From NCBI GenBank assembly GCA_965200875.1, contig OZ241456.1, positions 1,241,159 to 1,305,158 on the forward strand: DNA of 64,000 bases, read 5' to 3'. Of the stretch, positions 20,356 through 34,590 are shown piece by piece; within the stretch, counting starts at the first letter, position 1; the number at the start of each line of letters is the position of its first letter. Below the pieces are notes generated by a model, which made no database searches, was not told where the DNA came from, and was given only the letters and a program-made list of their open reading frames with translations. The position numbers and the translations under genes are program-made. Source of the stretch: Bdellovibrionales bacterium. Lineage in GTDB: Bacteria; Bdellovibrionota; Bdellovibrionia; Bdellovibrionales; UBA1609.

Positions 20356-20431
20356 GACCCGCTAGCTCAGTTGGTAGAGCATCTCCCTTTTAAGGAGAGG
20401 GTCCTTGGTTCGAGCCCAAGGCGGGTCACCA
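20356..20431 (+). tRNA. tRNA-Lys (anticodon UUU), CCA encoded
   Basis: Acceptor stem gacccgc/gcgggtc, D-loop agctcagttggtagagc, anticodon arm tctcc-cTTTTaa-ggaga, and T-arm ggttcgagccc. Confidence 0.9.
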
Positions 20432-20434
20432 CTA

Positions 20435-20509
20435 GTTCCCTTCGTCTAGCGGTCAGGATGTCACCCTTTCACGGTGAAGACACGGGTTCGATTCCCGTAG
20501 GGAACGCCA
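20435..20509 (+). tRNA. tRNA-Glu (anticodon UUC), CCA encoded
   Basis: Acceptor stem gttccct/agggaac, anticodon arm tcacc-cTTTCac-ggtga, and T-arm gggttcgattccc. Confidence 0.9.
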
Positions 20510-20615
20510 TATATTTTGTAACTAATTGAAATAACTTGTAATTTTTCTATCACTGATCACTTGGCAGAGGAAATTTAACTAATAGCGTCATAAATTCTCA
20601 AAAAAATGCCCCTTG

Positions 20616-20666
20616 AACCTTTATACTTTCAACCTTTATAGGAGTTGTCCGTGATAAACCTTTATA
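20616..20666 (+). repeat. three direct copies of AACCTTTATA just downstream of the tRNAs
   Basis: Copies at 20616, 20631 and 20657. The adjacent ccgtgataaacc / ctcgtgaaaaaacc resemble degenerate MITE ends. Confidence 0.5.
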
Positions 20667-20794
20667 GGAAGTAGCTCGTGAAAAAACCTTTCCTAAACTG
20701 AAAGAATCTCTAAGAGCTTTCAGTCCCTTGAAAACGGGAATCTTGTTGAATTTTAGGGAAATGTTCAAAATAAATAACAGGCAGGTTGTATATA

Positions 20795-21038
20795 ATGATG
20801 AAAAATAAAATTAATCAACTTTCTTTTTTTGAAGAAACAAAATTATCGAATCATCTCTTCAAGAAATTTGAAGAGATCCATAATTATATATATGCCAATG
20901 AGGGGCTATCTGAACAACAAGTTTTAGAGGAGATTATAAAAATTTTATTTATAAAGTTTTATGATGAACAAAAAAATAGTGACAGGTTTTACATTTCAAA
21001 AACAGATTTTTTAAATATAAATTCCAAAAAAACTGGAG
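20795..21038 (+). pseudogene. N-terminal fragment of an N6-adenine DNA methyltransferase (type I/IIG-like), cut by IS3
   Basis: FEEIHNYIYANEGLSEQQVLEEIIKILFIKFYDEQ resembles the MTase N-terminal helical domain. The reading frame runs into the IS end at 21039. Confidence 0.55.
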
Positions 21039-21054
21039 TGGCCCCTATTTTTGG

Positions 21055-21942
21055 CTACCTCATTTGTGTTGATTTAATATACTCCACAGGTGACTTCATG
21101 CCAAGTGCTGAATGGGGAGCTTTATGGTTATAATCATATATCCATTCTTTTAATAATTTCATAGTGTCTTCAGCACAGGAGCAGTCATTCACATACACAT
21201 AATCTCGTTTTATTGTCTTTACAAAAGCCTCTGCCATACCATTACTCTCTGGACTGTAAGCCCTCGTAAAACAAGGCTTTAAACCCAGCTGGCGGGCCAA
21301 TACCTGCACATTATACGCTCTGTAAATACTCCCTCGATCCGATAAAAATTCAATCTCTCTATTTGTTCGACAAGCATCAAATCGCCCTTCTACAGCACTA
21401 ATCATCAAACCCTGTATGTCTTCTTCTGATAAAAGAGGCTTTAACGACGCCGTAAAGCTTAAAATCTCCCTGTCACATGTGTCTAACACAAAAGAAACAT
21501 ACACCTTCTCTCCATTAAAACAATGAATTTCAAAACAATCAGAACACCACCTCGTATTGGAATACAATGTCATCACTTTTCCTGTACTCTTATGCCCTTC
21601 CCTTCTGCTGACAGCTTTGGGTAACAAAAGGCCATTTTCTTTCATTACACGATAAATACGCTTCTTATTATACTTGCTTAAACCCTTTAAAACCCTCTCC
21701 TTGTTGTAAAGAGCCGTTACACGCTTGTAACCATAAGTGGGACGATCCTTTATCACAGCTCTTATCCCTGATAAAATTTGCTTATCTTTATCCTTTATCT
21801 TCATCTTAACACTTCTCCTCTCACTCACTTTGTAAAGAGACTTTGGATGAATCCCTATTAACTCACAAAATCTTTTTTTACAGCAGATCGCTGAGCAGTG
21901 GATGATAAACTCTTTTGCAAATTCAGTTTTTCTTCCCTCCAC
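21055..21942 (-). CDS. IS3 transposase OrfB (DDE/rve integrase core), expressed by -1 frameshift as OrfAB
   Basis: rve-type motifs (WCSDCFEI...DRGSIYRA...SPESNGMAEAF). The slippery run A8-G lies at 21943-21950 (minus strand ATGAAAAAAAAGTGG). Confidence 0.85.
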   Translation of the reverse strand: MEGRKTEFAKEFIIHCSAICCKKRFCELIGIHPKSLYKVSERRSVKMKIKDKDKQILSGIRAVIKDRPTYGYKRVTALYNKERVLKGLSKYNKKRIYRVMKENGLLLPKAVSRREGHKSTGKVMTLYSNTRWCSDCFEIHCFNGEKVYVSFVLDTCDREILSFTASLKPLLSEEDIQGLMISAVEGRFDACRTNREIEFLSDRGSIYRAYNVQVLARQLGLKPCFTRAYSPESNGMAEAFVKTIKRDYVYVNDCSCAEDTMKLLKEWIYDYNHKAPHSALGMKSPVEYIKSTQMR

Positions 21943-22244
21943 TTTTTTTTCATAAACTCATTCCATTGCTTAAGAGTGGTGATATCCAATGCTTGATCAG
22001 CTACAGTATGCTTTAAACGAGAGTTCTCCACCTTTAAACGATTTATCTCTAAAAGCAATTCCTCTTGGTCTAATCCTGTTGCTTTCTTTTCTCTGCGCAT
22101 TTTCTCTCTCCTCCATTGATAAATAGTTGCGGCTTGAATCTGATACTTCCGTGATAATTCGGAAATACTGAGACCACCTTGAAAATGCTCTGAAAGTATC
22201 AAAAATCTTTGATTTTTTGAAATCTTTTTGGAAAATCTATCCAT
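21858..22244 (-). CDS. IS3 transposase OrfA (HTH)
   Basis: 128 aa with an HTH (LSISELSRKYQIQAATIYQWRRE) and a leucine-zipper-like region. It ends in the frameshift window. Confidence 0.85.
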   Translation of the reverse strand: MDRFSKKISKNQRFLILSEHFQGGLSISELSRKYQIQAATIYQWRREKMRREKKATGLDQEELLLEINRLKVENSRLKHTVADQALDITTLKQWNEFMKKKWREEKLNLQKSLSSTAQRSAVKKDFVS

Positions 22245-22283
22245 TTTACCTCCTTTTAGAAGGTAGCCAAATTTTGGGGGTCA

Positions 22284-23011
22284 AGAACATAATCGATGAA
22301 GATTTTAGTGCAGTGATATCAGATTACAATCAATTTTTAAAAACATCTTCTACAAAATCCAATTCATCCTTCTGCATTAAAGCACAGAAATTAAATAGAA
22401 GATTTGATTACACATATCATCTCCCTGCAAATCGCAAACTAATAAAACAATTAAAACAATTAAACTCTGTTTATCTTTTTGAGCTAGCTGATATTGTAAA
22501 GACAAAATCAACATTTTTAAAAAATAAAATTGTTAACTACATTGAACTTTCAGATGTATATACGAATTCATTTGAAATTATTAACTCAGCAGGAATAGCT
22601 GTTAATAAGCTACCCAGTAGAGCCAGTTATGAACTAAAAACAGGGGATATTATTACGGCTGTTGCGGGTAATGCCATAGGAACTCATAAACACACTACTG
22701 CCTATGTCACAGAGGAATTTAACCATTCAATTTGCACAAATGGTTTTCGTGTATTAAGAAACTTCAGAATTAATCCATTTTATCTTTTGTATTATTTTCA
22801 AAGTGATTTATTTTTGAAGCAGGTATTTATGTATCGGACAGGAGCAGCCATTCCAGCATTATCAGATGAAGATTTCAGTAAAATTTTAATATATATTCCA
22901 CCTGAAAAGGAAATGAAACAAATCAGCTTGACTGTGAAAAAAAGTTTTTATTTAAGACAAAAAGCCAAAAATGAAATGAAGAATATCACCTTAACTGAAA
23001 TAAACCCATAA
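22284..23011 (+). pseudogene. C-terminal specificity (HsdS-like TRD) fragment of the disrupted restriction-modification gene
   Basis: The TRD-like pattern LFELADIV...YIELSDV...LKTGDIITA...NGFRVLR...INPFYLLYYFQS...RTGAAIPALS...ILIYIPPEKEMKQIS starts right at the IS end. No MTase catalytic motif lies between the fragments. Confidence 0.55.
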
Positions 23012-23060
23012 ACACAGCTATATTTATATCTTTTTTATTACTGCCCATCTTCATAGATAA

Positions 23061-23185
23061 TGGTCTGTGAAAAAGTTCTGTTTAAGTGAGTTACTTTCCT
23101 ACTTATCGGAAGGCTCCCCCTTAGTACGTCATTCCCGTGAAAACGGGAATCCAGAAAACCACATACTTTTTCACAGGCTACTAAG
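23061..23185. mobile_element. MITE-like element copy B
   Basis: tggtctgtgaaaaag ... gtcattcccgtgaaaacgggaatccag ... acatactttttcacaggctactaag. Confidence 0.75.
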
Positions 23186-23551
23186 TACTAGAAGGCCGAC
23201 TGGCAATCTGTTTCGTAAGCTCCACTCCTGGAGGCAGAGGCACACCTTGAGCTTTATTAAAACCCGTTGAAGGATTGGAAAAAGCAGACGCACTGGCATA
23301 AAGCAAAACCTGATCTTTAATATTACCTTTTTCCGTTGCCTCAACAAAGGACCGAAAAGTTGTCAGAGTTTTGGCTTTATTGGCATTTACAGTTTCGTTG
23401 TGTTTTTCTGCATGAAAATTTTTATTACAAAAATTTATAGCGTAAATCCATAAGCTAAGTATTATTCAAGCAACAATCTCCAGATAACCCAGCACAAGGG
23501 CTTCTTTTCCTTTAAAATACGCAAAAAGCCCACCAGTAATGAATAGGCAAC

Positions 23552-24199
23552 CTATATCAAGCCAAAAAGTAAATTTCGCCCCCATTTATACCATCTTTGA
23601 GCTTTTTTTAAGTGATCAATTTGAGCATTTGAATAGTGAATGGCATTTTGAGATACTCCTGCTTCAGCAGAGGCAGTCCTCATGGATTCTAAAATAGATT
23701 CAGCAGATTTTTTTTGATTTTCTATCTGATTTTTTTGTTCTTCAGAATGAGCTTTAACTTGCTCTAAAGTTTGTCTTGCTTCTCTTTCAATTTGTTTAAA
23801 ATCCGTTCCTGCTTGATTTGCAAAGTTAACTACTGAGGATACAGCTTCAAAAAAACCATCATAGGAATCTTCTACATCCTGCACAATATTATCCCTTGTA
23901 TCCTTAGGACTGCTGTCTTCTAAATTGAGAGATCTTGCTCTTTCAAAAATCTCTTTATATGCTTGTAGTTTCCCTCGTATGTATGAAGTTTTGTCTTGAG
24001 GAACTCTTTCAAAATGACATTTTGAAAGATCTTCTATTAGTCCGAAAACCATTTCAAACTGTTCTTTTCCTTTGCGGTTAAAACTAACATCATGCAATCG
24101 ATCCTCTCCGTATAATTCATCACGATCAATTTTTAAAAATTCTTGTATTTCAGTCTGCAGAGCTTTAGCTTCCTCTTTCATAGATTCAAGTATTGACAT
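23552..24199 (-). CDS. coiled-coil protein whose C-terminal TM helix is interrupted by an in-frame TAG
   Basis: 215 aa ending ...WYKWGRNLLFGLI-TAG. The same frame continues VAYSLLVGFLRILKEKKPLCWVIWRLLLE to a TAA at 23462-23464. Confidence 0.5.
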   Translation of the reverse strand: MSILESMKEEAKALQTEIQEFLKIDRDELYGEDRLHDVSFNRKGKEQFEMVFGLIEDLSKCHFERVPQDKTSYIRGKLQAYKEIFERARSLNLEDSSPKDTRDNIVQDVEDSYDGFFEAVSSVVNFANQAGTDFKQIEREARQTLEQVKAHSEEQKNQIENQKKSAESILESMRTASAEAGVSQNAIHYSNAQIDHLKKAQRWYKWGRNLLFGLI

Positions 24200-24488
24200 T
24201 ATAATCTTTCTCCATAATAAGGTTTAATAGTTCACAATCAGCTCAAAGCGAGAATGATCGTTTTTCAAGGTAACTGGTTACACCAAAAAACCTATTTTTT
24301 TGAGGTTTCAGTCACAGAATCAATGTATCATTTCTGTTCTGTTGTAGTAGTTTCGAGGACGATTATTAACCAAAAGCAGGATGTATGACAAGAAAAATAG
24401 GGTAAAAATGGTGTTTTAAAGTGTTTCTTCTTGATTTTCAGCTATAATTTTGTTGATTTTATATCCTAAAATAACGATAATATAAAAT

Positions 24489-24728
24489 ATGACTACTCAA
24501 AAAAAATCAAAACTGATAACTGAAGAAATCTTGGATCAATCTGGATTGGACGAAACTTCCAAAGCATTGGAGTTTTATAAGACATTTAAGGAAATTTCTG
24601 ATATTACAGAAAAAATAGATATTGCTCTAGGCAGAAAAAAAATATATACATATAGCTCTGGTTCAACAAAAAATTTTGAAATAGATACTGATGCAATCCC
24701 ACCAACAATCCAATCGTATACGGTTTAA
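24489..24728 (+). CDS. small hypothetical protein
   Basis: 79-aa ORF divergent from 23552-24199, with no recognisable motifs. Confidence 0.35.
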   Translation: MTTQKKSKLITEEILDQSGLDETSKALEFYKTFKEISDITEKIDIALGRKKIYTYSSGSTKNFEIDTDAIPPTIQSYTV

Positions 24729-24873
24729 AATAACTCAAATATAATATCTAAAATTATTAGAAAATTTTAGCTTTGAGTGGTTCTTCTTTTTTTCATTATC
24801 TGTGTTAATAACCATAAATTCTTGACAATATTTTATTGACAATGTTGTCAAAATCAAGTAAAAGTATTGAATA

Positions 24874-25149
24874 ATGTGGCAAATTGTCTTTACAAATAAA
24901 GCTCGTAAAAACTTTAAGAAGCTTCCTAGGCAGATCCAAGAGCAAACAGTTCTTTTAATAAATGAAATACAATTTGCAGGACCTATCAGAAGAAATTGGT
25001 CACATTTTTCAAAATTGATGAAAAATGAATATCATTGTCACTTAAAAAAAGGACATCCAACTTATGTTGTCTGCTGGAAAGTGATAAGTAAACAATTAAA
25101 AACTGTGGAGGTTTATTATGTCGGCACACATGAAAAAGCACCTTACTAA
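24874..25149 (+). CDS. RelE/ParE-superfamily toxin (toxin-first, HigB-like arrangement)
   Basis: 91 aa. MWQIVFTNKARKNFKKLPRQIQEQ...HCHLKKGHPTYVVCWKV...VEVYYVGTHEKAPY fits the RelE-like pattern. Confidence 0.65.
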   Translation: MWQIVFTNKARKNFKKLPRQIQEQTVLLINEIQFAGPIRRNWSHFSKLMKNEYHCHLKKGHPTYVVCWKVISKQLKTVEVYYVGTHEKAPY

Positions 25150-25495
25150 GGTAATGATAGGAAATGAAAAATTTAAATTGCGTTCCAAGGAGGTTAAAAC
25201 TCTTTTGTCTTTGGTAAAAATTATGGAAAAATCGTACTCTCCGGGTAAAGATAACGCGAATTGGCCGATTGTTTATAAAGAAAATTTTGGTAATATGCCA
25301 GAGTGGGCTTTGTGTTTACGCTCAGCTCGCCGAAAAAAAAAACTTTCTCAAAAAGAGTTAAGTAAAAAATGTCAGATTCCCATAACCACTATTTCAAAAT
25401 ATGAAAATGGAGAACGAAAAATCTCTGAACCTCAGGCTAAAAAATTAGCTAAAGCTTTACAAACACACTTTAAAGTGTTTTTGATTAAAAAATAA
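25118..25495 (+). CDS. XRE-family HTH antitoxin
   Basis: C-terminal HTH_3 motif LSQKELSKKCQIPITTISKYENGERKISEPQAKKLAKAL. It overlaps the toxin's 3' end. Confidence 0.65.
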   Translation: MSAHMKKHLTKVMIGNEKFKLRSKEVKTLLSLVKIMEKSYSPGKDNANWPIVYKENFGNMPEWALCLRSARRKKKLSQKELSKKCQIPITTISKYENGERKISEPQAKKLAKALQTHFKVFLIKK

Positions 25496-25508
25496 AGAAA
25501 TTATAATG

Positions 25509-26456
25509 TTAAATTTTTCCAACTTTAGCAAGATGCCAATAAAATTGACCTTTTTCTGTTAAACTACAACTTTTGTTATTCATAGTCGCATAATACATAT
25601 GCTCTTCATCATCTGGTCTCACAAGACCATTTCTGCAATAATCTTGTAGTATGTTCATTTTTTTTTCATTAGGATGATTTTTAGGTTCTTCGGTCGGTTC
25701 GTAACTTTTATCAAGTTTATGCTTTGAAGCTGGTTCTGGAAAAAAATTTGTTAGTTCCCTAAGTATTTGTCGCTCAATTTGCGGTTTACAAACTCTAATT
25801 GGTGTTGGTCTGGAAATATGTGTTTTAAATAAAGGACGTTGCTCCCATGCTCCAAAAATTGGTTCAACATGAGCATATATACTCGCAGTTGTAACTATCC
25901 CAAGTAAATCAGCGGCACTTCCTTTTAAAGCATCACAAACAAGTGATGTAAAAAGGCCTCCATTAATACCTTCCATTGCAACTTGATTGGGTCTGCTGGC
26001 AGTCAATATGGTAATACCTTCTCTAATGAAAGCTGAAGTACTGTCAATCTCAGGTAAAGAACCAAGTTTCCCACTAAAACAACAGTCCAACATTAGTATA
26101 CATTCTTTAATTTGTGATTTGTTAGCAAGATGAAGAATCTCTCTCATAGCTACACCTTCATCATATTTTTTAGCATCCTGAGTTACAATATAACCTCCAA
26201 GATTGTTTGAGATCCCATGACCAGAAAAATAAAAGAAGGCCATATCTGCTGGGTCTTTAAAAAGTTTTTCTATACAGGATCTTAAACCTGCTCTTGTAAT
26301 TTCTGCATTATCTGAAGTTAATATTTTACACTCAAAGTTAGGAGTACCATCTTCATTTTTTGAAATCAATTTTTGGATATTTTTAGCATCTGTTATACAA
26401 CCAGTTAAATGTGCTATTTCATAATCATCAATACCAACTACTAATGCTCTTTTCAT
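25509..26456 (-). CDS. caspase-like cysteine protease (peptidase C14 fold) with an uncharacterised C-terminal domain
   Basis: MKRALVVGIDDY, His motif FYFSGHG, Cys motif LMLDCCFSG, and about 120 aa of unassigned C-terminus. ATGA overlap with the upstream TIR-like gene. Confidence 0.8.
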   Translation of the reverse strand: MKRALVVGIDDYEIAHLTGCITDAKNIQKLISKNEDGTPNFECKILTSDNAEITRAGLRSCIEKLFKDPADMAFFYFSGHGISNNLGGYIVTQDAKKYDEGVAMREILHLANKSQIKECILMLDCCFSGKLGSLPEIDSTSAFIREGITILTASRPNQVAMEGINGGLFTSLVCDALKGSAADLLGIVTTASIYAHVEPIFGAWEQRPLFKTHISRPTPIRVCKPQIERQILRELTNFFPEPASKHKLDKSYEPTEEPKNHPNEKKMNILQDYCRNGLVRPDDEEHMYYATMNNKSCSLTEKGQFYWHLAKVGKI

Positions 26457-26860
26457 CTATTTTTACCTTCTGTCATCATTTGCGAAATGACATTTGCAAT
26501 CTTATCCCAATGCCAATATATACTTCTGTTTTCCTTTAAGCCAGAAGGTAAAGTGGAATAATGGTTAGCTCCATCAACATAAACACCAAAAAAGGGAACA
26601 TCTTGTTTTTGTGCCATAATAATTTCCTTTTCCACACCAACAGCATTTCCCATATTTTTACCAACTAACACTATCATTAAGGTACATTTCTTAATTTTAT
26701 CTTCTACTATTCGCTCCCATTGAGATTGAGGTAGTGAAGTTTTTGATGACCAATCAGTTATTGCAAAAGGTGTTTTGGAATTTTTCGATTGACCTACAAA
26801 TAAGTTTTTTTCATTTTCATTGTGATCATAATCAAAACTTATAAACACTCTGGGTCCCAT
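26453..26860 (-). CDS. TIR-like domain protein (DUF1863/ThsB-like)
   Basis: 135 aa. RVFISFDYDHNENEKNLF...IKKCTLMIVLVGKNMGNAVGVEKEIIMAQKQDVPFFGV matches the TIR-like pattern (vFiSy...viVLiG...WV.yEI..A). Confidence 0.7.
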   Translation of the reverse strand: MGPRVFISFDYDHNENEKNLFVGQSKNSKTPFAITDWSSKTSLPQSQWERIVEDKIKKCTLMIVLVGKNMGNAVGVEKEIIMAQKQDVPFFGVYVDGANHYSTLPSGLKENRSIYWHWDKIANVISQMMTEGKNR

Positions 26861-27028
26861 ACTCCCCTCCTCTTTTTAGAGAGATATAACAGATAAGATA
26901 AATATGTCAATATATTTTCTATCTAACATCTCTTAAAACAATTTATTTTCATACCGCCTTATGCCTTAACAAACTGTCCAAATATGAAAACTATATCAGG
27001 TTCAGAGCACATTTTTTTTGCAATTACT

Positions 27029-27232
27029 CCTCTGTGAAAAAGTATGTTTACTTAAGGAAAAAGGATGAAACATCTTCCTAAAACTCAGCAAGATTCCCGT
27101 TTTCACGGGAATGACAGCTGTATGAAAAGAGGTTCAATTATTACACCCTTCTTTCATGTACCTTCTCAAGGGACGTCATTCCCGCGAAAGCGGGAATCCA
27201 GTCAAAATAACATATTTTTTCACGGGCCACTC
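27029..27232. mobile_element. composite MITE-like copy C (two partial copies in opposite orientation)
   Basis: ctctgtgaaaaagtatgtt...gattcccgttttcacgggaatgac ... gtcattcccgcgaaagcgggaatccag...catattttttcacgggccactc. Confidence 0.7.
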
Positions 27233-27439
27233 ATTATAATCAGTGGCCCTAAATATGAAATTAGATCAATGATCCCATTTTTTTTAATTTCTAAGATTGC
27301 ACTGAAGTCGGGAACATTGTAAAATAAATAGATACAAATCAAAATAGTAATCCAACACAAATTTTAGAAGTCTGGAAATAAAAATGAAAACACAAGCTAA
27401 ACCATATATATTCTGTGATCAAAATGTAATGGAGCAGAA

Positions 27440-28432
27440 ATGAATTTTAGTAAAAAACAAAAATCTGAAAATAATCGTTCAAAAGGTGAAGTATTCAAAA
27501 TTGTCCAAAAATGTCTCAAAGACCCTCCCTTGATCATTTGGGGATCTGGAGCAACTATTCCTTACGGCTTGCCAAGTATGGAGAATCTAAAACAATGTCT
27601 AAAATCTGAAATAGGAAACCCAGAGGAGAATACTAACCTTGAAATAGAACTTGGAAAAATTGAAAGTCAGAATAAAATTGATAAAATTAAAAAGATTATC
27701 AGAAGTGAAGTTCTTCAAAAAAACTTGGAGTGTTTGAAAAAATCCATACAGACACCAAATTATTTTGAAGCAATAGAAAAAATGATAAGAAAATTTTACA
27801 CTGCTCACCCTCAAAAGCTGGATATTGTCACAACTAATTATGATTGCATTTTAGAGTATGCTCTATCAAAGACTGATTATAATTTTACAGATGGATTTAC
27901 CGGAAGACCACTATCAAAATTTAAGTCAGAAGTTTTTGGCACAAAAGAAATTATCAATCTAATCAAAGTTCATGGTTCTTTAAATTGGTTTTCTGATAAC
28001 AACGACAATATATTTTATTTACCCGGTGAATATAAATTTGACAACTTGAAATATACGATGATTCCACCGGCCAGAGAGAGAAAATATCAAGAAGCTCTTT
28101 TAAAAGAACCATACAGAACTCTCATTAGAAAAACAGACAATATAATTGAACATGCAAACAGCTTTTTGGTTGTTGGTTTTGGATTTAATGATGAACATTT
28201 GACACCAAAAATTGATGGTAAAATTAAAACAGGCACTCCCATTGTGATTATCACTAAACAAGCCACTGATTCCTGTAAAAATAAATTGAGTAATGCTGAA
28301 AAATATTGTTTATTTGAAAGTAACGAAAATGGAACAAAAATTACATTGAAAGAAAATAAAGATAATACTGAAAAATCCATTGAACTCAAGGGAAATTATT
28401 GGGAACTTAATAAATTTATGGAGGTTTTATGA
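27440..28432 (+). CDS. SIR2-family (SIR2_2) NAD-binding protein of a SIR2-HerA pair
   Basis: LIIWGSGATIPYGLPSM, VTTNYDCILEYAL, KVHGSLNW, VVGFGFNDEH. Confidence 0.8.
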   Translation: MNFSKKQKSENNRSKGEVFKIVQKCLKDPPLIIWGSGATIPYGLPSMENLKQCLKSEIGNPEENTNLEIELGKIESQNKIDKIKKIIRSEVLQKNLECLKKSIQTPNYFEAIEKMIRKFYTAHPQKLDIVTTNYDCILEYALSKTDYNFTDGFTGRPLSKFKSEVFGTKEIINLIKVHGSLNWFSDNNDNIFYLPGEYKFDNLKYTMIPPARERKYQEALLKEPYRTLIRKTDNIIEHANSFLVVGFGFNDEHLTPKIDGKIKTGTPIVIITKQATDSCKNKLSNAEKYCLFESNENGTKITLKENKDNTEKSIELKGNYWELNKFMEVL

Positions 28433-30135
28433 ATCCAAAAGAACAAAAGCCGTTGGGAAAAGTGGAAAGCGTGGATACGGGTAATGTGATTATCAAAGTT
28501 ATTGAAGATCAAAAACTCAATAGCATTCAGGTTAATAATTTGCTTCGTATTCGCTCCACAAAAACAGGAGAAGCCATTATTGGTCTGGTTGTAAAAATTA
28601 TGCGAAAATCTTCTGATAAGCCAGAACCTGATAACCCTGAAGAAATTATTGTTGAAAATGTAATAAAAGCCTGCTTGGTTGGAACATTATTGGATAAACA
28701 TGGTGAAAAATCCAATGTGTTTAAAAGAACACTGGAAACAGTGCCAAGCCTTGATGCTGATTGTTTTCTTATAGAAGGTGAGGAGCTTTCAAGTTTTATG
28801 CAGTCTTTGTCTGTTGGAGATAAAGAAAAAGAAAAGTCATTAAAAATTGGAAAATATGTGATATCAAAAGATGCTGAAACTTATCTGGATGGCAATAAGT
28901 TTTTTCAAAGACATGCTGTAATTGTTGGAAGCACTGGTTCTGGCAAATCTTGGACTGTCGCTAAAATCTTGGAAAAATCCTCTCAATTACAATCTGTGAA
29001 CAGTATTATTTTTGACATTCATGGAGAATACAAGCCATTAAAAGAATTGGATAATACAACTTTGTTAAAAGTAGCTGGACCTATGGATAATGAGGATAGA
29101 GAAGAAACTATATACTTGCCCTATTGGCTTTTATCCTATGAAGAAATAATGGCAATGATGTTGGATAGAAGTGATCAGAATGCTCCCAATCAGTCAAGGG
29201 CTTTGTTTGATCTGGTGATCAAACACAAAAAGAAGAAATTGAAAGAAAATCAAAAACAAGATATTCTGAATAATTTTACCATTGATAGCCCTGTCCCCTA
29301 CTCTATAGGTGAAGTGTTAAAAGAACTTGAAATCAAAGATACAGAAATGGTGCCTGGTTCTGGAAATAGAGACAAACAAGGACCTCTATATGGAAAGCTA
29401 ACCCGTTTTATACAAAGGCTTAAAAGCAAACAAACTGATAAAAGATTAAATTTTCTGTTTAATAATAGTTCAAGCTTACAAAAATATGAATGGCTTGAAA
29501 CTTTGGTTGAAAAACTAATGGATTTTAATAATAAGAAAGGAAACAAAATTATTGATTTTTCAGAGGTGCCCTCAGATATATTGCCATTGATAACAGGCTT
29601 AGTGACAAGGTTGATTTTTTCCATTCAGCAATGGACTGATCTCGCTAAAAGGCATCCTATTGCCTTGTTTTGTGATGAAGCGCATTTGTATATCCCTGTT
29701 AATATAGAGACTTCCAGTGTTGAGGAGCGAGGGCTTTATAATTTTGAAAGAGTTGCCAAAGAAGGAAGAAAATATGGGGTTTCTCTTGTAGTAATTAGTC
29801 AGAGACCGGCGGATGTCAGCAAAACTGTTTTAAGTCAATGTGGGAATTTCGTATCAATGCGACTTTCAAACCCTGATGATCAAAATGTTATAAGACGGCT
29901 ATTCCCGGATAGCTTGGGAAATTTTGCTGAATTATTGCCTATTTTAGATATAGGGGAAAGTTTAATCGTGGGAGATGCCTGTTTGCTCCCAAGCAGAGTA
30001 AAAATTGATGAACCAAAAATTAAGCCAAAAAGTGCCACAGTTAATTTTTGGGACGAATGGAAAAAAGATAAGAAAGATAAAGGGATAAAATCAGCTCTTG
30101 AAGATTTAAGAAGACAAAGCAAATCTAATAAATAA
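28429..30135 (+). CDS. HerA/FtsK-like ATPase (DUF87) of a SIR2-HerA pair
   Basis: Walker A VGSTGSGKSW, Walker B ALFCDEAHLY, and RKYGVSLVVISQRP. ATGA overlap with the SIR2 gene. Confidence 0.85.
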   Translation: MNPKEQKPLGKVESVDTGNVIIKVIEDQKLNSIQVNNLLRIRSTKTGEAIIGLVVKIMRKSSDKPEPDNPEEIIVENVIKACLVGTLLDKHGEKSNVFKRTLETVPSLDADCFLIEGEELSSFMQSLSVGDKEKEKSLKIGKYVISKDAETYLDGNKFFQRHAVIVGSTGSGKSWTVAKILEKSSQLQSVNSIIFDIHGEYKPLKELDNTTLLKVAGPMDNEDREETIYLPYWLLSYEEIMAMMLDRSDQNAPNQSRALFDLVIKHKKKKLKENQKQDILNNFTIDSPVPYSIGEVLKELEIKDTEMVPGSGNRDKQGPLYGKLTRFIQRLKSKQTDKRLNFLFNNSSSLQKYEWLETLVEKLMDFNNKKGNKIIDFSEVPSDILPLITGLVTRLIFSIQQWTDLAKRHPIALFCDEAHLYIPVNIETSSVEERGLYNFERVAKEGRKYGVSLVVISQRPADVSKTVLSQCGNFVSMRLSNPDDQNVIRRLFPDSLGNFAELLPILDIGESLIVGDACLLPSRVKIDEPKIKPKSATVNFWDEWKKDKKDKGIKSALEDLRRQSKSNK

Positions 30136-30170
30136 TTTTCTAATTCAGGTATGTTGAAATGCAGGTATAT

Positions 30171-30836
30171 TTAAGAAAAAACTTTTGGTGTAAAGTCTTT
30201 CTCATTTTGAATGATAACATCATCTATCGCATCAACAACAAAAAAACCTTGCTTTTGAGCTAAATGGCTAGCCGATTTATTATTGGACTTTATTAAAAAA
30301 GCCATTGCTCCATAAATGGTTTTGTTTTTAAATACTGGCCACCAGTTTGTAAAATTCTTAAGGTTTTCTGTAAATTCCTTCACATCGGAAGGATCTAAAG
30401 TGGCTTTCACTTCCACAACCACAGCCTCTTTCTCATTGATAGCGATAATATCAAACTCTGTAAAAGCGTTTTTGGCATTGGTAATGACTCTTTCCACTTC
30501 GATTCCTCTCTCCTTTAATTGCTGAGCCAGACTACCTTTGACAAGGTTTTCACCCAGTTTGCCCCAACCATTTCCAGAATCTCCAATAACATCATTGATT
30601 TGTTTATCGATTTCTTTCATTTGTTGATTGGTTTCTTTGTGGCTGATGGTCAGCTCTTTCATTTGTTGATCGGTTTCTTTTTGGATGGCGCGAATCTCCT
30701 GCATTTCCTGCCTTGCTTCTTTATGGCTGTCTTGAAGCTCTTTTTGGTTGGCAGAAACTTCTTTTAAGTTTTTTTGTGTTTCCTTTAAAAGACTCCAGAT
30801 TTCATCTGAAACAGGTACGGCTGATTGGTGACTCAT
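30171..30836 (-). CDS. coiled-coil protein with a C-terminal PD-(D/E)xK-like nuclease fold (DUF3782-like)
   Basis: N-terminal repeats QKELQDSHKEARQEMQEI / QKETDQQMKEL / HKETNQQMKEI. C-terminal EFDIIAINEKEAVVVEVKATL (D...E-x-K). Confidence 0.55.
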   Translation of the reverse strand: MSHQSAVPVSDEIWSLLKETQKNLKEVSANQKELQDSHKEARQEMQEIRAIQKETDQQMKELTISHKETNQQMKEIDKQINDVIGDSGNGWGKLGENLVKGSLAQQLKERGIEVERVITNAKNAFTEFDIIAINEKEAVVVEVKATLDPSDVKEFTENLKNFTNWWPVFKNKTIYGAMAFLIKSNNKSASHLAQKQGFFVVDAIDDVIIQNEKDFTPKVFS

Positions 30837-30977
30837 TTATGGACTCCTTATGACTATTGATATTATCATACTATAAATGTTGTGAAAAAACCATTTAAAA
30901 CTGTAGGAGTTTTTGTAAGCCTCTAAAACCAAACTTTGAAATCATCTTATGAAAATAAATTGACTTTGGTTTTGACC

Positions 30978-31006
30978 TTGACAGTCAAAACCATAAAAAT
31001 TATACT
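30978..31006 (+). promoter_or_regulatory. near-consensus sigma70-type promoter overlapped by a 10-bp inverted repeat
   Basis: TTGACA (30978-30983), N17, TATACT (31001-31006). The IR tggttttgac/gtcaaaacca (30967-30976 / 30984-30993) brackets the -35. Confidence 0.5.
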
Positions 31007-31014
31007 AAGTTAAT

Positions 31015-31069
31015 AGCCTGTGAAAAACCCTTTTTCCTTAAGAAAACATACTTTTTCACGGAAGACTAA
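31015..31069. mobile_element. internally deleted mini MITE copy D
   Basis: agcctgtgaaaaaccc...aaaacatactttttcacggaagactaa keeps both terminal repeats and lacks the core. Confidence 0.6.
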
Positions 31070-31122
31070 ATTAAACAGAATTATGTACCTCTCCAAAAAA
31101 TAAATTCTGGAATTTTTATTTT

Positions 31123-31389
31123 ATGGAAATAAAGATACAACATATTATGATTATAAGTATTATTATCAGTGCTGGGATTCTTATATCTTCTATTTTAAAT
31201 TTACGTAAAACAAATACTATTATTTTAGATCAAAAAATTATTAAGGAAAGTTTAAAAACAGAGAAGGACCTTATCAGAAGCATTATATATGAGACTTTAA
31301 CTCAAGAACAGTATAATCTTTTAAAAGAGAAGGGGAAATTGGATGAGAACAAGTTATACCTGATATCTGATAAACATTCGTCTAAGTAG
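31123..31389 (+). CDS. small membrane protein, hypothetical
   Basis: 88 aa with one TM segment (IMIISIIISAGILISSIL). The stop codon lies at the edge of MITE copy E. Confidence 0.35.
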   Translation: MEIKIQHIMIISIIISAGILISSILNLRKTNTIILDQKIIKESLKTEKDLIRSIIYETLTQEQYNLLKEKGKLDENKLYLISDKHSSK

Positions 31390-31515
31390 TGGTCCGTGAA
31401 AAAGTATGTTATTTCCCTGGATTCCCGCCTGCGCGGGAATGACGTACCAAGAGGGATTTTTCTTTTTAACAGACAAGTAACCTGTTTTATCAGAGGTTTT
31501 TCACGGGTGACTAAG
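31384..31515. mobile_element. MITE-like element copy E
   Basis: aagtagtggtccgtgaaaaagtatgtt...ggattcccgcctgcgcgggaatgac...ggtttttcacgggtgactaag. Confidence 0.75.
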
Positions 31516-31549
31516 TAGTTGGTGGCCATGAATAAATGATAAAATATTA

Positions 31550-31574
31550 TTATCACTTGATTTTTTTATAATTT
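31550..31574 (+). repeat. 5' part of the conserved intergenic element (copy 3), 10 nt upstream of the ImmA-like gene
   Basis: ttatcacttgatttttttataattt is identical to the start of copy 1 (3828-). Confidence 0.6.
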
Positions 31575-31584
31575 AGGTAAAAGT

Positions 31585-32796
31585 ATGAAAAGGCAAAAAG
31601 CATTAATTACCCCTTCTGTTATTAAGTGGGCCAGAGAAACATCTCGCTATTCCCTTGATACTGTTGCAAAAAAAATAGGAGTCTCACCAGATAAACTGAA
31701 AGAATGGGAACAAGGTGTAAGCCTGCCGAGTCTTGCACAAGCCAGAAAAATGTCAGAGATCTATAGACGACCGTTAGCGACTTTTTATCTCCCTCATCCC
31801 CCAGAGGATTTTACTTTGCTCCAAGATTTTCGTACTATGGAAGGTAAAACTCCTGAATATAGCCCTCCCTTGGTATTCTTTATGAGGCAAATACAGGAAC
31901 GCCAAGCTTGGCTCAGCCAATATTTACAGGAGCAAGGACATAACAAGCTTCACTTTATTGGTTCATTGAGTGTTAAATCCTCTGTAAAATCAGTCGCAAA
32001 AAATATTATCAATACCATTTGGGGAAATGAAAGACAATACTCTGAAGTATGGGATAACACTCGCAATGTAGAAGTTCTTTTAACTCAATGGATTAACCAG
32101 TGTGAAAGGAAAGGAATTTTTATTTCCCGGACCAGTAATTTAAACTCCCACAATCCAATACCTGTCAAAGAAGCAAGGGGTTTTGTTATTTCAGACCCGT
32201 ATGCCCCTTTTATATTTATCAATTCAAAAGATGCCGAAAATGCAAAGTTATTTACACTTTTACATGAGCTTGCTCACTTATGGTTGGATATCTCTGGTGT
32301 ACCGGATCATTTTTTGTCCAGTAAAAAATCAAAAGTAGAGTCTTTTTGTAATCAAACAGCGGCTGAGATACTTCTGCCACAGGAGAAGATAAAAACTTTT
32401 TCAATAGTAACCAGCTTTAATCCAAAAGAGTTAAAAGAATTTATAAACAAACATTGTAAAACATTAAAAGTGAGTAGTCTAGCCTTGTTGATTAGATTAA
32501 AAAGTCAGTCTTTTATAAAATCTCAGATTTTTGAATCTCTTAAAAAAGAATATGTCAAGGAATCTGAACAATACAGAAAGAGAAGAGAGGAACAAATGAA
32601 AAAAAACAAAGGCGGACCTCCTGCCACCCTCTTAAAAATTTATGCCAATGGAGAAAGTTTTACGAAAATTGTTTTTTTCTCTTACAAAGAGGGAATTTTA
32701 ACTGGTCGGGAAGCTTCGAATCTTTTAGACATGAAGCTTGGCAGTCTGGAAAAAGCCATAGAGGGTAAACTCATTAAAACGACAGGGGTAATATGA
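31585..32796 (+). CDS. XRE HTH fused to an ImmA/IrrE-family zinc metallopeptidase
   Basis: N-terminal HTH (IKWARETSRYSLDTVAKKIGVSPDKLKEWEQG) and HExxH (LLHELAHLW). Confidence 0.8.
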   Translation: MKRQKALITPSVIKWARETSRYSLDTVAKKIGVSPDKLKEWEQGVSLPSLAQARKMSEIYRRPLATFYLPHPPEDFTLLQDFRTMEGKTPEYSPPLVFFMRQIQERQAWLSQYLQEQGHNKLHFIGSLSVKSSVKSVAKNIINTIWGNERQYSEVWDNTRNVEVLLTQWINQCERKGIFISRTSNLNSHNPIPVKEARGFVISDPYAPFIFINSKDAENAKLFTLLHELAHLWLDISGVPDHFLSSKKSKVESFCNQTAAEILLPQEKIKTFSIVTSFNPKELKEFINKHCKTLKVSSLALLIRLKSQSFIKSQIFESLKKEYVKESEQYRKRREEQMKKNKGGPPATLLKIYANGESFTKIVFFSYKEGILTGREASNLLDMKLGSLEKAIEGKLIKTTGVI

Positions 32797-33266
32797 AAAA
32801 ATACTGCCTAGATACCAATGTTTTTATAGAACCCTGGAAAAGGTATTATTCTCCTCAATTCACAAAAGGATATTGGAATTTGCTTAAACAATATGGTAAA
32901 AAAGGTATTATTTTTGCCACAATGGAAGTGAAAAATGAAATTAAAAAAATTGATGATGATCTTTTACAGTGGGTCAAAACTTCAGAACTGTTTAGAGAAC
33001 CTGATGAATCTGTGCAAACCTTTTTGAGAAAAATTATGGAAAAATATTCCAGATTGGTGGATAATGTAAAAGGTAGATCTATGGCTGATCCTTGGGTAAT
33101 TGCTCATGCTCAATCTGAGGGGGCCACAGTAGTCACTACAGAGCAAAAAGCTCCTAAGAAAATAAAAATTCCGGATGTGTGCGAAAAAGAAAATATACCT
33201 TGTATTGATATTCATGATTTTGTTAAAGAATTAAAAATAGAATTTACAGCAAAAATTAAAAAATAA
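32793..33266 (+). CDS. DUF4411-family (PIN-like) protein
   Basis: MKKYCLDTNVFIEPWKRYY...SMADPWVIAHAQSEGATVVTTE. ATGA overlap with the ImmA-like gene. Confidence 0.7.
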   Translation: MKKYCLDTNVFIEPWKRYYSPQFTKGYWNLLKQYGKKGIIFATMEVKNEIKKIDDDLLQWVKTSELFREPDESVQTFLRKIMEKYSRLVDNVKGRSMADPWVIAHAQSEGATVVTTEQKAPKKIKIPDVCEKENIPCIDIHDFVKELKIEFTAKIKK

Positions 33267-33327
33267 TGGCTTTATAGATTAAATAAATATAGAAAACATG
33301 AGGATTTTAACCTAAAGAGAATAAATT

Positions 33328-34590
33328 ATGAATTTGATTACGAGTCTTCTTTTACTGTTAATTTGTGCCCGTATTTTTGGTCGGTTGTTTAAGTCTATTG
33401 GCTTTCAGGAAATTATCGGCGAAATACTGGGGGGACTATTAATAGGTCTGACCACTTTAGTATCTCCCAACGAAGAATTAAACGGCATTGTGGAACTGGC
33501 CGTGTTTTTGTTGATTTTTGCCGCTGGGCTGGAAATGAATTTGAAAGATATTTTTTCTGCTCTTAGAAAAAAAGCTCTGATATGCGCCCTGACCAGCTTT
33601 ACTATCTCTTTTACAGCTGGCATTCTTGTGTCCCGCTTCATGGACTTAAAGCTGATTCCCTCATTAGTAGTGGGACTTTGTTTTGCTATCACAGCTATGC
33701 CAGTGGTCGTTGGGTTTTTACAAAATCTGAAAATAATGGACACCCAAGTGGGACACCTTATCATGGGTTCCACAGTCCTGATTGATATAGTGGCTCTGCT
33801 CTTCCTAGGAATCACCTTTGATATGGACAAAACACATACAGTTTTTGAGTTTATAAAAATCTTTTCTTTCAAAACATTTAAGATGGCTTTTTTCTTTATA
33901 GCCATCATGTTGGTGAATAAGTTTTTGCGGTCAGAGATTTCCCGTGCCAATAAAACCGAAAAAGCTTTTAACAAGCTTATCAGCTATCTGGGAAAAGAAG
34001 CCATTTTTGGTTTGGGAATTGTTTTTGTGTTAGGCTTTTCCACTCTCAGTGAAGTGTTGGGTTTTCATTTTATTATAGGAGCTTTTTTCGGAGGATTGCT
34101 TTTAAACAAAGATATTATTGGAACAACCGCTTTCCTTTCCATGACCAGAACTTTAAACGCAATTACCAGCCATTTTCTGACGCCAATTTTTTTCGCCTAT
34201 ATTGGGTTACATTTTTCCATTGATGCCTTTAACGAATGGAAGTTGTTGCTACTTGTAATGTCCATTGCTTTCCTTAGCAAAATTCTAGGATCGTGGCTGG
34301 GTAGTCGCTTGGCTTGCTTCACCAGTAAAGAAGCCCTGCAAGTGGGTATCATTCTTAACTCCAGAGGAGTATTAGATCTTATCGTCGCCAACTTGGCTTA
34401 CTCAAAGGGTTATATTAGTGCCGATATTTTTTCCATTCTCATATTCTTAGGTGTCAGCAGTGTTATTATAAACCCTTTTCTATACAGGAGATTTATTCCC
34501 TCTTCCTCCTCCCCTCCTCCTTCCTCTCCATCCGGGAAAGAAAACCACGACAAAAAAGAAGAGAACGACAAAGGCATTTATATCCGATGA
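33328..34590 (+). CDS. cation:proton antiporter (CPA2/Kef-NapA type)
   Basis: 420 aa, polytopic, with N-terminal LICARIFGRLFKSIGFQEIIGEILGGLLIG typical of Na_H_Exchanger proteins. Confidence 0.8.
   Translation: MNLITSLLLLLICARIFGRLFKSIGFQEIIGEILGGLLIGLTTLVSPNEELNGIVELAVFLLIFAAGLEMNLKDIFSALRKKALICALTSFTISFTAGILVSRFMDLKLIPSLVVGLCFAITAMPVVVGFLQNLKIMDTQVGHLIMGSTVLIDIVALLFLGITFDMDKTHTVFEFIKIFSFKTFKMAFFFIAIMLVNKFLRSEISRANKTEKAFNKLISYLGKEAIFGLGIVFVLGFSTLSEVLGFHFIIGAFFGGLLLNKDIIGTTAFLSMTRTLNAITSHFLTPIFFAYIGLHFSIDAFNEWKLLLLVMSIAFLSKILGSWLGSRLACFTSKEALQVGIILNSRGVLDLIVANLAYSKGYISADIFSILIFLGVSSVIINPFLYRRFIPSSSSPPPSSPSGKENHDKKEENDKGIYIR

What the first reader, a model, noticed from the sequence alone, without database searches (positions are those of the whole stretch)
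20510..33270. Integrase-less, MITE-partitioned defence island immediately downstream of tRNA-Lys/tRNA-Glu
About 12.7 kb lies between the tRNA pair and the antiporter gene. It holds an IS3-broken RM remnant, a coiled-coil/TM gene, a RelE/XRE pair, TIR-caspase, SIR2-HerA, a coiled-coil PD-(D/E)xK protein and ImmA-DUF4411. I found no integrase or recombinase and no repeat of the tRNA 3' end. Nearly every module boundary instead carries a copy of the same MITE-like element (23061, 27029, 31015, 31384). This suggests module turnover by recombination between dispersed repeats rather than by a classical integrative element.
Basis: partly seen in the sequence, partly recalled or inferred. Interest (0 to 1): 0.6.

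Follow-up and report, generated by a model that had tools for sequence, protein, structure and literature searches.

The report
Decayed tRNA-side defence island with MITEs
This 12.8-kb stretch next to two tRNA genes in an uncultured Bdellovibrionales genome is an ordinary, partly decayed anti-phage defence island, and its small repeats look like later colonists, not the means by which its gene modules are exchanged.

Summary
The described genes are present. tRNA-Lys and tRNA-Glu (20356-20509) are followed by an IS3-broken RM remnant, a frameshifted coiled-coil/TM gene and a RelE-fold toxin with XRE. Next come TIR plus caspase (type IV Thoeris architecture), SIR2-HerA, a coiled-coil PD-(D/E)xK gene and ImmA-DUF4411. 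A core Na+/H+ antiporter follows at 33328.

I found no tyrosine or serine recombinase and no repeat of the tRNA end. The repeat is a real, TA-flanked MITE of about 60-155 nt with a dRS3-like palindrome. The island holds six copies or fragments in five gaps, and two more lie elsewhere in the window.

The proposed mechanism has little support:
- The repeat family also sits in housekeeping gaps of relatives.
- Its excess in the island is mostly explained by the island's extra intergenic DNA (P about 0.06).
- Directly oriented island copies share at most 15 identical bases.
- Only 2 of 6 synteny breakpoints fall in MITE-bearing gaps.
- Four of five homologous islands have no such repeat at any module boundary.

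Relatives point to classical routes. One has an integrase and conjugation genes at the same tRNA-Glu. Another carries SIR2-HerA between 18-nt att repeats beside an integrase fragment at tRNA-Val.

Verdict: new member of a known kind, low interest.

The parts
17438..20233 (+). sucA (2-oxoglutarate dehydrogenase E1), core left flank
   Evidence: Pfam E1_dh, Transket_pyr and OxoGdeHyase_C. It is 71-89% identical in related Bdellovibrionales MAGs, and the sucA-tRNA-Lys-tRNA-Glu order is kept in L001-L005.
20356..20509 (+). tRNA-Lys(ttt) 20356-20431 and tRNA-Glu(ttc) 20435-20509; left edge of the island
   Evidence: ARAGORN and Rfam tRNA at 68 and 64 bits.
20663..20768 (.). Truncated MITE copy (B end plus palindrome, lacking the A-end terminal repeat)
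   Evidence: 86% complementary over 51 nt to 27069-27119. Placed in the family alignment A2.
20786..21033 (+). N-terminal fragment of an RM-type methyltransferase
   Evidence: PADLOC MTase_II 8e-8, matching profile positions 200-246 of 723. The ORF runs into the IS3 end.
21034..22283 (-). IS3-family insertion sequence (orfA 21858-22244, orfB 21055-21942)
   Evidence: rve, rve_3, HTH_21 and HTH_Tnp_1 domains. Inverted repeats at 21042-21060 and 22261-22279. The outer ends are read by eye and approximate.
22283..23011 (+). S/TRD-like C-terminal fragment of the same RM gene
   Evidence: Methylase_S 7e-6, PADLOC Specificity_I 3e-15, NCBIfam MAD5 S subunit 2e-15. Homologues in relatives are also truncated, and one is IS-adjacent.
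23058..23186 (.). MITE copy (B to A orientation)
   Evidence: Terminal repeat and palindrome hits and alignment A2.
23190..24199 (-). Coiled-coil gene (ORF 23552-24199), with an apparently frameshifted TM-like tail that stays open up to the MITE
   Evidence: Only weak PbeC and NsnC hits. Downstream frames are shown.
24489..24728 (+). 79-aa ORF of unknown function
   Evidence: 60% identical homologue in the L083 island. No family hit.
24874..25495 (+). RelE-fold toxin (24874-25149) plus XRE antitoxin (25118-25495)
   Evidence: AlphaFold model with pLDDT 96.6. Foldseek finds YafQ, YoeB and RelE at TM 0.72-0.75. HTH_3 6e-16.
25509..26860 (-). TIR (26453-26860) plus caspase-like protease (25509-26456), a two-gene operon with a 4-nt overlap
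   Evidence: ThsB_TIR 3.5e-9 and Peptidase_C14 1.2e-18. PADLOC caspase 3e-17 and ThsB 3e-8. The architecture is that of type IV Thoeris (bioRxiv 10.1101/2024.10.24.620036).
27025..27235 (.). Two abutting MITE copies (27025-27119 truncated, 27122-27235 with a degenerate B end)
27440..30135 (+). SIR2 (27440-28432) plus HerA (28429-30135) defence system
   Evidence: PADLOC SIR2 6e-113 and HerA 4e-231. DNA is 80-89% identical to L082-L085.
30171..30836 (-). Coiled-coil plus PD-(D/E)xK (Hjc/NERD-like) protein
   Evidence: Hjc 3e-6 and NERD 8e-4. Three 42-nt tandem repeats at 30613-30738.
31011..31068 (.). Mini MITE copy (both ends, interior deleted)
31123..31389 (+). 88-aa ORF with a TM-like N terminus, enclosed by two inverted MITE copies
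   Evidence: ORF list. No family hit.
31387..31513 (.). MITE copy (A to B orientation, with a perfect 24-nt A end)
31585..33266 (+). ImmA/IrrE-HTH (31585-32796) plus DUF4411 PIN-like protein (32793-33266)
   Evidence: Peptidase_M78 8e-12, HTH_3, and DUF4411 6e-42. PADLOC RmrA 9e-17. DNA is 83% identical to L083 13442-15118.
33328..34590 (+). Na+/H+ antiporter, core right flank
   Evidence: PF00999. Homologues at 70-86% identity occur on many long contigs of 1-3 Mb from related genomes.
6557..6710 (.). MITE copy outside the island
   Evidence: It lies about 70 nt from a YhgA-like Transposase_31 gene at 6781-7896.
60808..60933 (.). MITE copy outside the island

Best explanation
The region is an ordinary defence island on the 3' side of tRNA-Glu in a small-genome, uncultured Bdellovibrionales bacterium. 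It is now immobile and partly decayed.

Likely working parts:
- SIR2-HerA, which depletes NAD+.
- A type IV Thoeris-like pair, in which a TIR signal activates a caspase-like protease.
- A RelE-fold toxin with an XRE antitoxin.
- An ImmA/IrrE-HTH plus DUF4411 pair resembling RosmerTA.

Dead parts are an RM gene broken by IS3 and missing its catalytic domain, and a frameshifted coiled-coil/TM gene.

The SIR2-HerA ... ImmA-DUF4411 backbone is shared with islands in related genomes. There it lies with a type III RM and CBASS, and it sits at other loci.

Inferred history: such cargo entered tRNA hotspots on tyrosine-integrase elements. It was then reshaped by deletion and by replacement between conserved flanking genes. 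In this genome the integrase and att repeat have been lost, plausibly in the IS3-associated deletion at the tRNA-proximal end.

The MITEs belong to a resident, TA-flanked family found across the genome and the clade. They settled afterwards in the island's abundant, tolerant intergenic DNA and are passengers, not the exchange mechanism.

Shown: gene identities, absence of integrase and att, MITE anatomy and distribution, and the contexts in relatives. Inferred: the order of events and the loss of the integrase.
For: - Gene calls are given.
- Island GC is 0.332, against 0.366 and 0.377 in the flanks.
- The same tRNA-Glu site differs between relatives. L001 has housekeeping genes. L002 has a tyrosine integrase 113 nt from the tRNA plus a VirD4/TraG-like gene. 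L004 has an IS-broken type III RM.
- L084 carries SIR2-HerA (HerA 88% identical) between an 18-nt repeat of the tRNA-Val 3' end (741-758 and 13880-13897, E 5e-5). A 103-aa integrase fragment lies beside that tRNA.
- L082 carries the same cargo between an integrase and tRNA-Arg.
- The backbone SIR2-HerA, Mod, ImmA-DUF4411, Res is complete in L082 and L086. It is eroded in L083 and L087 and stripped of Mod and Res in the window.
- The IS3 sits where the methyltransferase catalytic domain is missing.
- MITE copies are lineage-specific in position, also occur in housekeeping gaps, and are too short and diverged for efficient homologous recombination.
- Defence hotspots without detectable mobility genes are already documented (PMC10121019).
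Against: - No integrase remnant or att repeat exists in the window itself, so integrase-mediated arrival is inferred only from relatives.
- L083, L086 and L087 show no integrase or tRNA within 10 kb either.
- Gene order in the clade is scrambled. The antiporter has a different neighbour in L081, L090 and L091. The tRNA adjacency could therefore be secondary.
- No same-species genome was available.
- MITE density per kb is higher in the island (P = 0.005 by length; Fisher P = 0.02 by gaps).
Confidence: 0.6

Rival explanations
1. The dispersed MITE copies, or their dRS3-like palindromes, are the recombination substrates or landing pads through which defence modules are swapped. This would make the region an integrase-independent, repeat-partitioned island.
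For: - Five of eight island gaps hold a copy, against 2 of 16 outside (Fisher P = 0.02).
- The 20663-20768 copy is truncated exactly where the RM fragment begins, and the 27025-27235 element is composite.
- L083 has a palindrome array between HerA and Mod.
- L090 interleaves palindromes with IS110 and other IS copies.
- The palindrome fits the Neisseria dRS3 definition, for which a recombination-promoting role has been proposed (PMC1797815).
Against: - Enrichment is marginal per intergenic base (P = 0.056).
- Directly oriented island pairs share at most 15 nt of exact identity and 73-94% local identity. By my own knowledge, RecA-dependent recombination in E. coli needs about 23-27 nt of identity.
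- Only 2 of 6 breakpoints against L083 lie in MITE-bearing gaps. The right edge and the HerA end have none.
- L082, L086 and L087 have no repeat, and L084 has none inside its att-bounded island.
- Repeats occur in housekeeping gaps.
- Homology with L082 starts about 195 nt from the MITE edge.
Confidence: 0.1
2. An old, vertically inherited defence locus of this clade. It has been moved around by general genome rearrangement and eroded in place. Its position next to tRNA-Glu would be accidental, with no insertion event at this site.
For: - Module divergence resembles core-gene divergence. HerA is 83-91% and SIR2 75-85% identical at the nucleotide level, against 76-81% for sucA and 77% for the antiporter.
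- The linked SIR2-HerA and ImmA arrangement persists in five genomes.
- Synteny is scrambled everywhere in the clade.
Against: - The cargo sits beside three different tRNAs (Glu, Val, Arg) in three genomes, twice with an integrase gene or fragment and once with att repeats.
- L001, the closest relative by SucA, has housekeeping genes at this site.
- Island GC is lower than that of the flanks.
Confidence: 0.15
3. Integrase-free hotspot exchange. Whole cassettes are replaced by homologous recombination in conserved flanking genes after DNA uptake or conjugation, as proposed for Neisseria minimal mobile elements. No site-specific integration would ever have occurred at this tRNA.
For: - Two unrelated ImmA-DUF4411 variants (25-30% identical) occupy the same slot between conserved Mod and Res ends. 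The Mod N terminus is 79% identical between L086 and L083.
- No integrase or att exists in the window.
- Hotspots with no detectable mobility genes are known (PMC10121019; PMC3898611).
Against: - The window's flanks (tRNA-Glu and the antiporter) are not a conserved pair in any available relative.
- An integrase sits at this same tRNA in L002.
Confidence: 0.15

Closest known systems
tRNA-associated defence and genomic islands at integration hotspots (E. coli pan-genome hotspots, PMC10121019; P. aeruginosa core defence hotspots, PMC10250203)
   Same: Several unrelated defence systems are clustered directly 3' of a tRNA gene. Occupancy varies between relatives. Some occupied hotspots show no detectable mobile-element genes.
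   Different: No integrase or att repeat survives here. The flanks are not conserved in the available relatives. The host is an uncultured Bdellovibrionales lineage.
Neisseria NIME/dRS3 arrays and minimal mobile elements (PMC1797815, PMC3898611)
   Same: The MITE's internal palindrome fits ATTCCC-N8-GGGAAT exactly. Relatives have tandem arrays of half-sites.
   Different: In the window the palindrome is embedded in a TA-flanked element with terminal inverted repeats, not in dRS3-RS-dRS3 arrays. No dRS3-specific recombinase gene lies in the window. The phylum is unrelated, so common descent of the motif is untested.
MITEs of the IS630/Tc1-mariner type (TA-flanked) and Correia elements (PMC2649163)
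   Same: Short (about 60-155 nt), non-coding, with terminal inverted repeats. Ends are flanked by TA. Multiple diverged copies and internal-deletion derivatives sit in intergenic DNA.
   Different: No parent transposase with matching ends was found in the window. The two ends differ internally, so the element is asymmetric.
Type IV Thoeris (TIR plus caspase-like protease; bioRxiv 10.1101/2024.10.24.620036, PMC13243611)
   Same: A short TIR protein is followed by a caspase-like protease in a two-gene operon within a defence island. Read by eye, the caspase carries SGHG and DCC motifs and the TIR has a glutamate at residue 79.
   Different: Sequence relationship to the characterised Pseudomonas and E. 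coli systems was not measured. Activity is untested.
SIR2-HerA defence system (PMC11472057, PMC11514289)
   Same: Adjacent, overlapping SIR2 and HerA genes match the PADLOC models end to end.
   Different: None seen at the sequence level. Function is untested in this host.

Membership tests
Integrase-type tRNA genomic island | Lies directly at the 3' end of a tRNA gene | tested here: met
   The island begins after tRNA-Glu at 20509.
Integrase-type tRNA genomic island | Encodes a tyrosine or serine recombinase, usually next to the tRNA | tested here: not met
   No such domain in any island ORF. tblastn with the L002 integrase gave a best E of 0.7.
Integrase-type tRNA genomic island | Direct repeat of the tRNA 3' end at the distal boundary (att) | tested here: not met
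   Nothing longer than 12 nt in the window. By contrast, relative L084 has an 18-nt repeat.
Integrase-type tRNA genomic island | Composition differs from the flanks, and occupancy varies among relatives | tested here: met
   GC is 0.332 against 0.366 and 0.377. L001, L002 and L004 carry different content at the same tRNA.
Defence island | Several independent known defence systems clustered together | tested here: met
   SIR2-HerA, TIR-caspase, an RmrA-like ImmA pair and an RM remnant.
MITE | Short, non-coding, with terminal inverted repeats and multiple copies | tested here: met
   Eight copies or fragments of 58-154 nt. The terminal motif gives 15 hits against 0.9 expected.
MITE | Target-site duplication | tested here: inconclusive
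   Read by eye, most ends abut TA. A 2-nt duplication cannot be told from a target preference, and it cannot reveal recombinant copies.
MITE | Cognate autonomous element with matching ends | tested here: not met
   None in the window. The IS3 ends differ. The rest of the genome could not be searched.
Type IV Thoeris | [quoted passage not shown] | tested here: met
   TIR of 135 aa and caspase of 315 aa with a 4-nt overlap. The architecture is as described.
Type IV Thoeris | TIR makes N7-cADPR, which activates the protease | not testable with these tools
   This needs biochemistry.
SIR2-HerA | Adjacent SIR2 and HerA genes of the defence-type families | tested here: met
   PADLOC 5.7e-113 and 3.6e-231, both full length.
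RosmerTA | RmrA (HTH plus M78 peptidase) paired with a toxin | tested here: inconclusive
   RmrA models hit ImmA at 9e-17. DUF4411 matches no PADLOC model.
Neisseria-type NIME/dRS3 | 20-bp ATTCCC-N8-GGGAAT repeats flanking RS spacers in arrays | tested here: inconclusive
   The motif is met at five window sites. Arrays are seen only in relatives. No homology test against Neisseria was done.

The most novel reading that the evidence does not exclude
The dRS3-like palindromes carried by these TA-flanked MITEs could be recognition or landing sites for a recombinase, for example the IS110-type enzymes seen beside them in a relative. Through them, defence cassettes would be inserted and exchanged in Bdellovibrionales. 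That would be a repeat-guided, integrase-free island-building system parallel to what has been proposed, but not proven, for Neisseria NIME arrays.
Probability: 0.08. Interest if true: 0.55.

Novelty: new member of a known kind. Interest (0 to 1): 0.22.

Why it matters
The region adds a well-resolved defence island from a poorly studied group of small-genome, uncultured Bdellovibrionales. It includes a type IV Thoeris-like pair and SIR2-HerA.

Comparison with relatives shows that such islands erode, and that cassettes such as ImmA-DUF4411 are replaced inside a conserved type III RM frame. It does not reveal a new way of building or exchanging islands.

The occurrence of a dRS3-type palindrome far outside Neisseria is a curiosity that may merit a dedicated survey.

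Tried and rejected
- Exact-sequence look-ups of the window's SucA and antiporter found no retrievable source contig. The 1.83-Mb source genome therefore could not be surveyed.
The best antiporter relative is only 86% identical, and its neighbours differ in every genome.
- Two JGI metagenome scans, for the tRNA-Lys/Glu junction and for the tRNA-Glu 3' half, found nothing.
- The att search in the window, using blastn-short and k-mers with mismatches, gave only chance-level hits.
- tblastn of Mod, Res, integrase and other proteins from relatives' islands against the window found no remnants.
- Rfam found only the two tRNAs.
- A target-site-duplication test for recombinant MITEs was abandoned, because the flanks are just TA.
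- Homologues of the RM fragment were traced in the hope of finding an intact copy beside tRNA-Glu. They are also truncated and lie elsewhere.
- Sequence profiles failed for the RelE call. A structure model was needed.

Full report
**Anatomy**

ARAGORN finds tRNA-Lys(ttt) at 20356-20431 and tRNA-Glu(ttc) at 20435-20509. Upstream lies sucA at 17438-20233. Downstream, at 33328-34590, lies a Na+/H+ exchanger, followed by pilin, PilB and PilC genes. The interval has GC 0.332, against 0.366 on the left and 0.377 on the right.

- An RM-type methyltransferase N-terminal fragment (20786-about 21033) and an S/TRD-like fragment (22283-23011). An IS3 element separates them (orfA and orfB, inverted repeats at 21042-21060 and 22261-22279). 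The catalytic domain is absent.
- A 215-aa coiled-coil protein. Its downstream frames continue, through a frameshift and a stop, with a TM-like stretch up to the next repeat.
- An XRE protein.
- A ThsB-type TIR and a C14 caspase, overlapping by 4 nt.
- SIR2 and HerA (PADLOC 6e-113 and 4e-231).
- An Hjc/NERD-like coiled-coil protein.
- An M78-HTH (ImmA) protein and DUF4411.

The 91-aa 'RelE' matched no profile. A profile of 40 homologues gave only a weak hit to archaeal RelE. An AlphaFold model built on that alignment (pLDDT 96.6) matches YafQ, YoeB and RelE structures at TM 0.72-0.75, so the call stands.

**Integrase and att**

No island ORF carries a tyrosine or serine recombinase domain. tblastn with the integrase that sits at the same tRNA in a relative gives nothing better than E 0.7, and that hit is outside the island. 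No part of the tRNA pair or its 3' flank is repeated for more than 12 nt anywhere in the window. The only recombinase is the IS3 DDE transposase.

**The repeat**

The element is real. Its 24-nt end occurs 7 times with up to 3 mismatches, against 0 expected. The core CYGTGAAAAA occurs 15 times against 0.9 expected.

Aligned copies show an asymmetric element of about 125-155 nt when full length. It has these parts:
- A B end (CYGTGAAAAACC).
- A variable interior.
- A palindrome, GTCATTCCCG-N4-CGGGAATCCAG.
- An A end (AAATAACATACTTTTTCACGGACCACTA).

Read by eye, the ends mostly abut TA, as in IS630/mariner-type MITEs (the comparison is from my own knowledge).

Island copies:
- 20663-20768, truncated.
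- 23058-23186.
- 27025-27119 plus 27122-27235, two abutting copies.
- 31011-31068, with an internal deletion.
- 31387-31513.

Two more copies lie at 6557-6710 and 60808-60933. Rfam has no matching family.

**Is the placement special?**

With a simple automatic gene set, 5 of 8 island gaps of 100 nt or more hold a copy, against 2 of 16 outside (Fisher P = 0.02). That gene set omits the methyltransferase fragment and IS3 orfA, so the gap list is approximate.

By total length, five of seven copy-bearing sites in the island gives P = 0.005. The island also holds 35% of the window's non-MITE intergenic bases, and on that basis P = 0.056.

Several boundaries have no copy:
- The right edge of the island.
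- HerA and the PD-(D/E)xK gene.
- The boundaries among the coiled-coil, 79-aa, RelE-XRE and caspase genes.

**Relatives at the tRNA site**

SucA places the window among Bdellovibrionales MAGs at 71-89% identity. Five of them keep the order sucA, tRNA-Lys, tRNA-Glu. What follows tRNA-Glu differs in each:
- L001 has prs, dps, ahpC and mvaD.
- L002 has a tyrosine integrase 113 nt from the tRNA, then a VirD4/TraG-like gene.
- L004 has a type III RM broken by an IS.
- Two short-read contigs, L003 and L005, end just after the tRNA.

So the site is variable, and at least once it is used by a classical integrative element. None of these loci contains the window's island genes or the antiporter.

The antiporter is a clade-wide gene, but its neighbours differ everywhere:
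- The S10 operon and tRNA-Arg in L081.
- infA and topA in L090.
- cysS in L091.

No relative closer than 86% was found. Conserved-flank comparison at species level was therefore impossible, and JGI metagenome scans found nothing.

**Relatives with the same cargo**

HerA homologues at 88-92% identity exist in related genomes.
- L084 holds a type III RM, SIR2-HerA, two ORFs and a 103-aa integrase fragment (PF00589, 5e-10). These lie between an 18-nt direct repeat (AATGGTAGGAGGTGCCGG at 741-758 and 13880-13897, E 5e-5) whose second copy is the 3' end of tRNA-Val. This is a textbook tRNA island with a decaying integrase.
- L082 has an integrase at one end and tRNA-Arg at the other.
- L082 and L086 show a fuller backbone: CBASS or its remnant, CapH/CapP-like genes, SIR2-HerA, type III Mod, ImmA-DUF4411 and Res.
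- L083 keeps a shortened Mod and only the last 142 residues of Res.
- L087 keeps scraps of Mod and 49 residues of DUF4411.
- The window keeps neither Mod nor Res.

The window's ImmA-DUF4411 is 77% and 90% identical to L083's. It is only 27-30% identical to those of L082 and L086, which occupy the same slot. Cassette replacement has thus happened between conserved coding flanks.

Module divergence is similar to or slightly less than that of core genes: HerA 83-91% nt against sucA 76-81% nt.

**Do the repeats mark breakpoints?**

Window-L083 homology blocks are 24390-24728, 27481-30142 and 31606-33271. Of their six ends, two lie next to MITE-bearing gaps (27025-27235 and 31387-31513). Four do not. 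Homology with L082 begins at 27431, about 195 nt from the MITE edge.

L082, L086 and L087 have no copy or palindrome. L084 has one just outside its att repeat. L083 has a palindrome array after HerA. Positions are not shared between genomes, so the insertions are lineage-specific and late.

The palindrome also occurs in a ribosomal-protein operon, in a purC-purB gap (L081), and elsewhere.

**Could they recombine?**

Within the island, the longest exact match between any two copies is 24 nt, and that pair is inverted. Directly oriented pairs share 8-15 nt, with local identity of 73-94% over 17-118 nt. By my own knowledge, RecA-dependent recombination in E. coli needs about 23-27 nt of identity. 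The present copies would therefore be poor substrates. They may have been better substrates when they were younger.

**Conclusion**

The proposed mechanism is not supported. The best reading is a decayed island at a tRNA hotspot. Its cargo family demonstrably travels on integrase/att elements in relatives and is remodelled by deletion and by flank-guided replacement. Resident MITEs colonised it afterwards.

Integrase-free defence hotspots are already described (PMC10121019). The component systems are known: type IV Thoeris and SIR2-HerA.

The one unusual detail is that the MITE palindrome fits the Neisseria dRS3 definition, ATTCCC-N8-GGGAAT (PMC1797815). In a relative, such palindromes alternate with IS110 and other IS copies. 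This keeps a small probability alive for a repeat-guided mechanism.

Noticed in passing
window 23131-23150, 27093-27112, 27178-27197, 31421-31440, 60880-60899: The MITE's internal 20-nt palindrome fits the Neisseria dRS3 definition, ATTCCC-N8-GGGAAT (PMC1797815), although the host is a Bdellovibrionales bacterium.
   Followed up: partly
L083 150-360 and 11795-11900; L004 14487-14640; L090 13305-13434 and 15955-16084: Relatives carry tandem arrays of half-palindrome units (period about 18-20 nt) ending in a full palindrome. These resemble NIME arrays. In L090 they alternate with IS110, DDE and rve transposase genes.
   Followed up: partly
L082 11743-18370; L086 11752-18202; L083 11973-15562: An ImmA/M78-HTH plus DUF4411 pair is embedded between the Mod and Res genes of a type III RM system. 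Two unrelated variants of the pair (25-30% identical) occupy the same slot in different genomes.
   Followed up: partly
L084 741-758 and 13880-13897: An 18-nt att-like direct repeat of the tRNA-Val 3' end bounds a 13-kb island. The island holds a type III RM, SIR2-HerA and a 103-aa integrase fragment.
   Followed up: yes
window 23190-23600 (- strand): The coiled-coil gene seems frameshifted. Other frames continue with a TM-like stretch and remain open up to the end of the MITE at about 23190. The gene may therefore be truncated by the repeat.
   Followed up: partly
window 31011-31513: An 88-aa ORF with a TM-like start is enclosed by two MITE copies in inverted orientation, a composite-transposon-like layout.
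   Followed up: no
window 6781-7896; L001 18299-18823; L090 12219-13232: YhgA/Rpn-like Transposase_31 genes lie close to MITE or palindrome copies in the window and in two relatives.
   Followed up: no
L003 and L005 contig ends: Two short-read MAG contigs stop 83-125 nt after tRNA-Glu. This is what would be expected if the site is variable or repeat-rich in those populations.
   Followed up: no
L088 9303-11149; L089 10001-11008: The closest homologues of the window's S/TRD-like RM fragment (82-85% identical) are also truncated. In L088 the homologue abuts an IS1595 transposase fragment.
   Followed up: partly
window 30613-30738: Three 42-nt tandem repeats encode the heptad-like coiled coil of the PD-(D/E)xK protein.
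   Followed up: no
L081, L090, L091, L001-L009 versus the window: Gene order is heavily scrambled among these small (1.3-3 Mb) Bdellovibrionales genomes at 70-89% protein identity. Only an MscS-like gene and sucA stay adjacent.
   Followed up: partly
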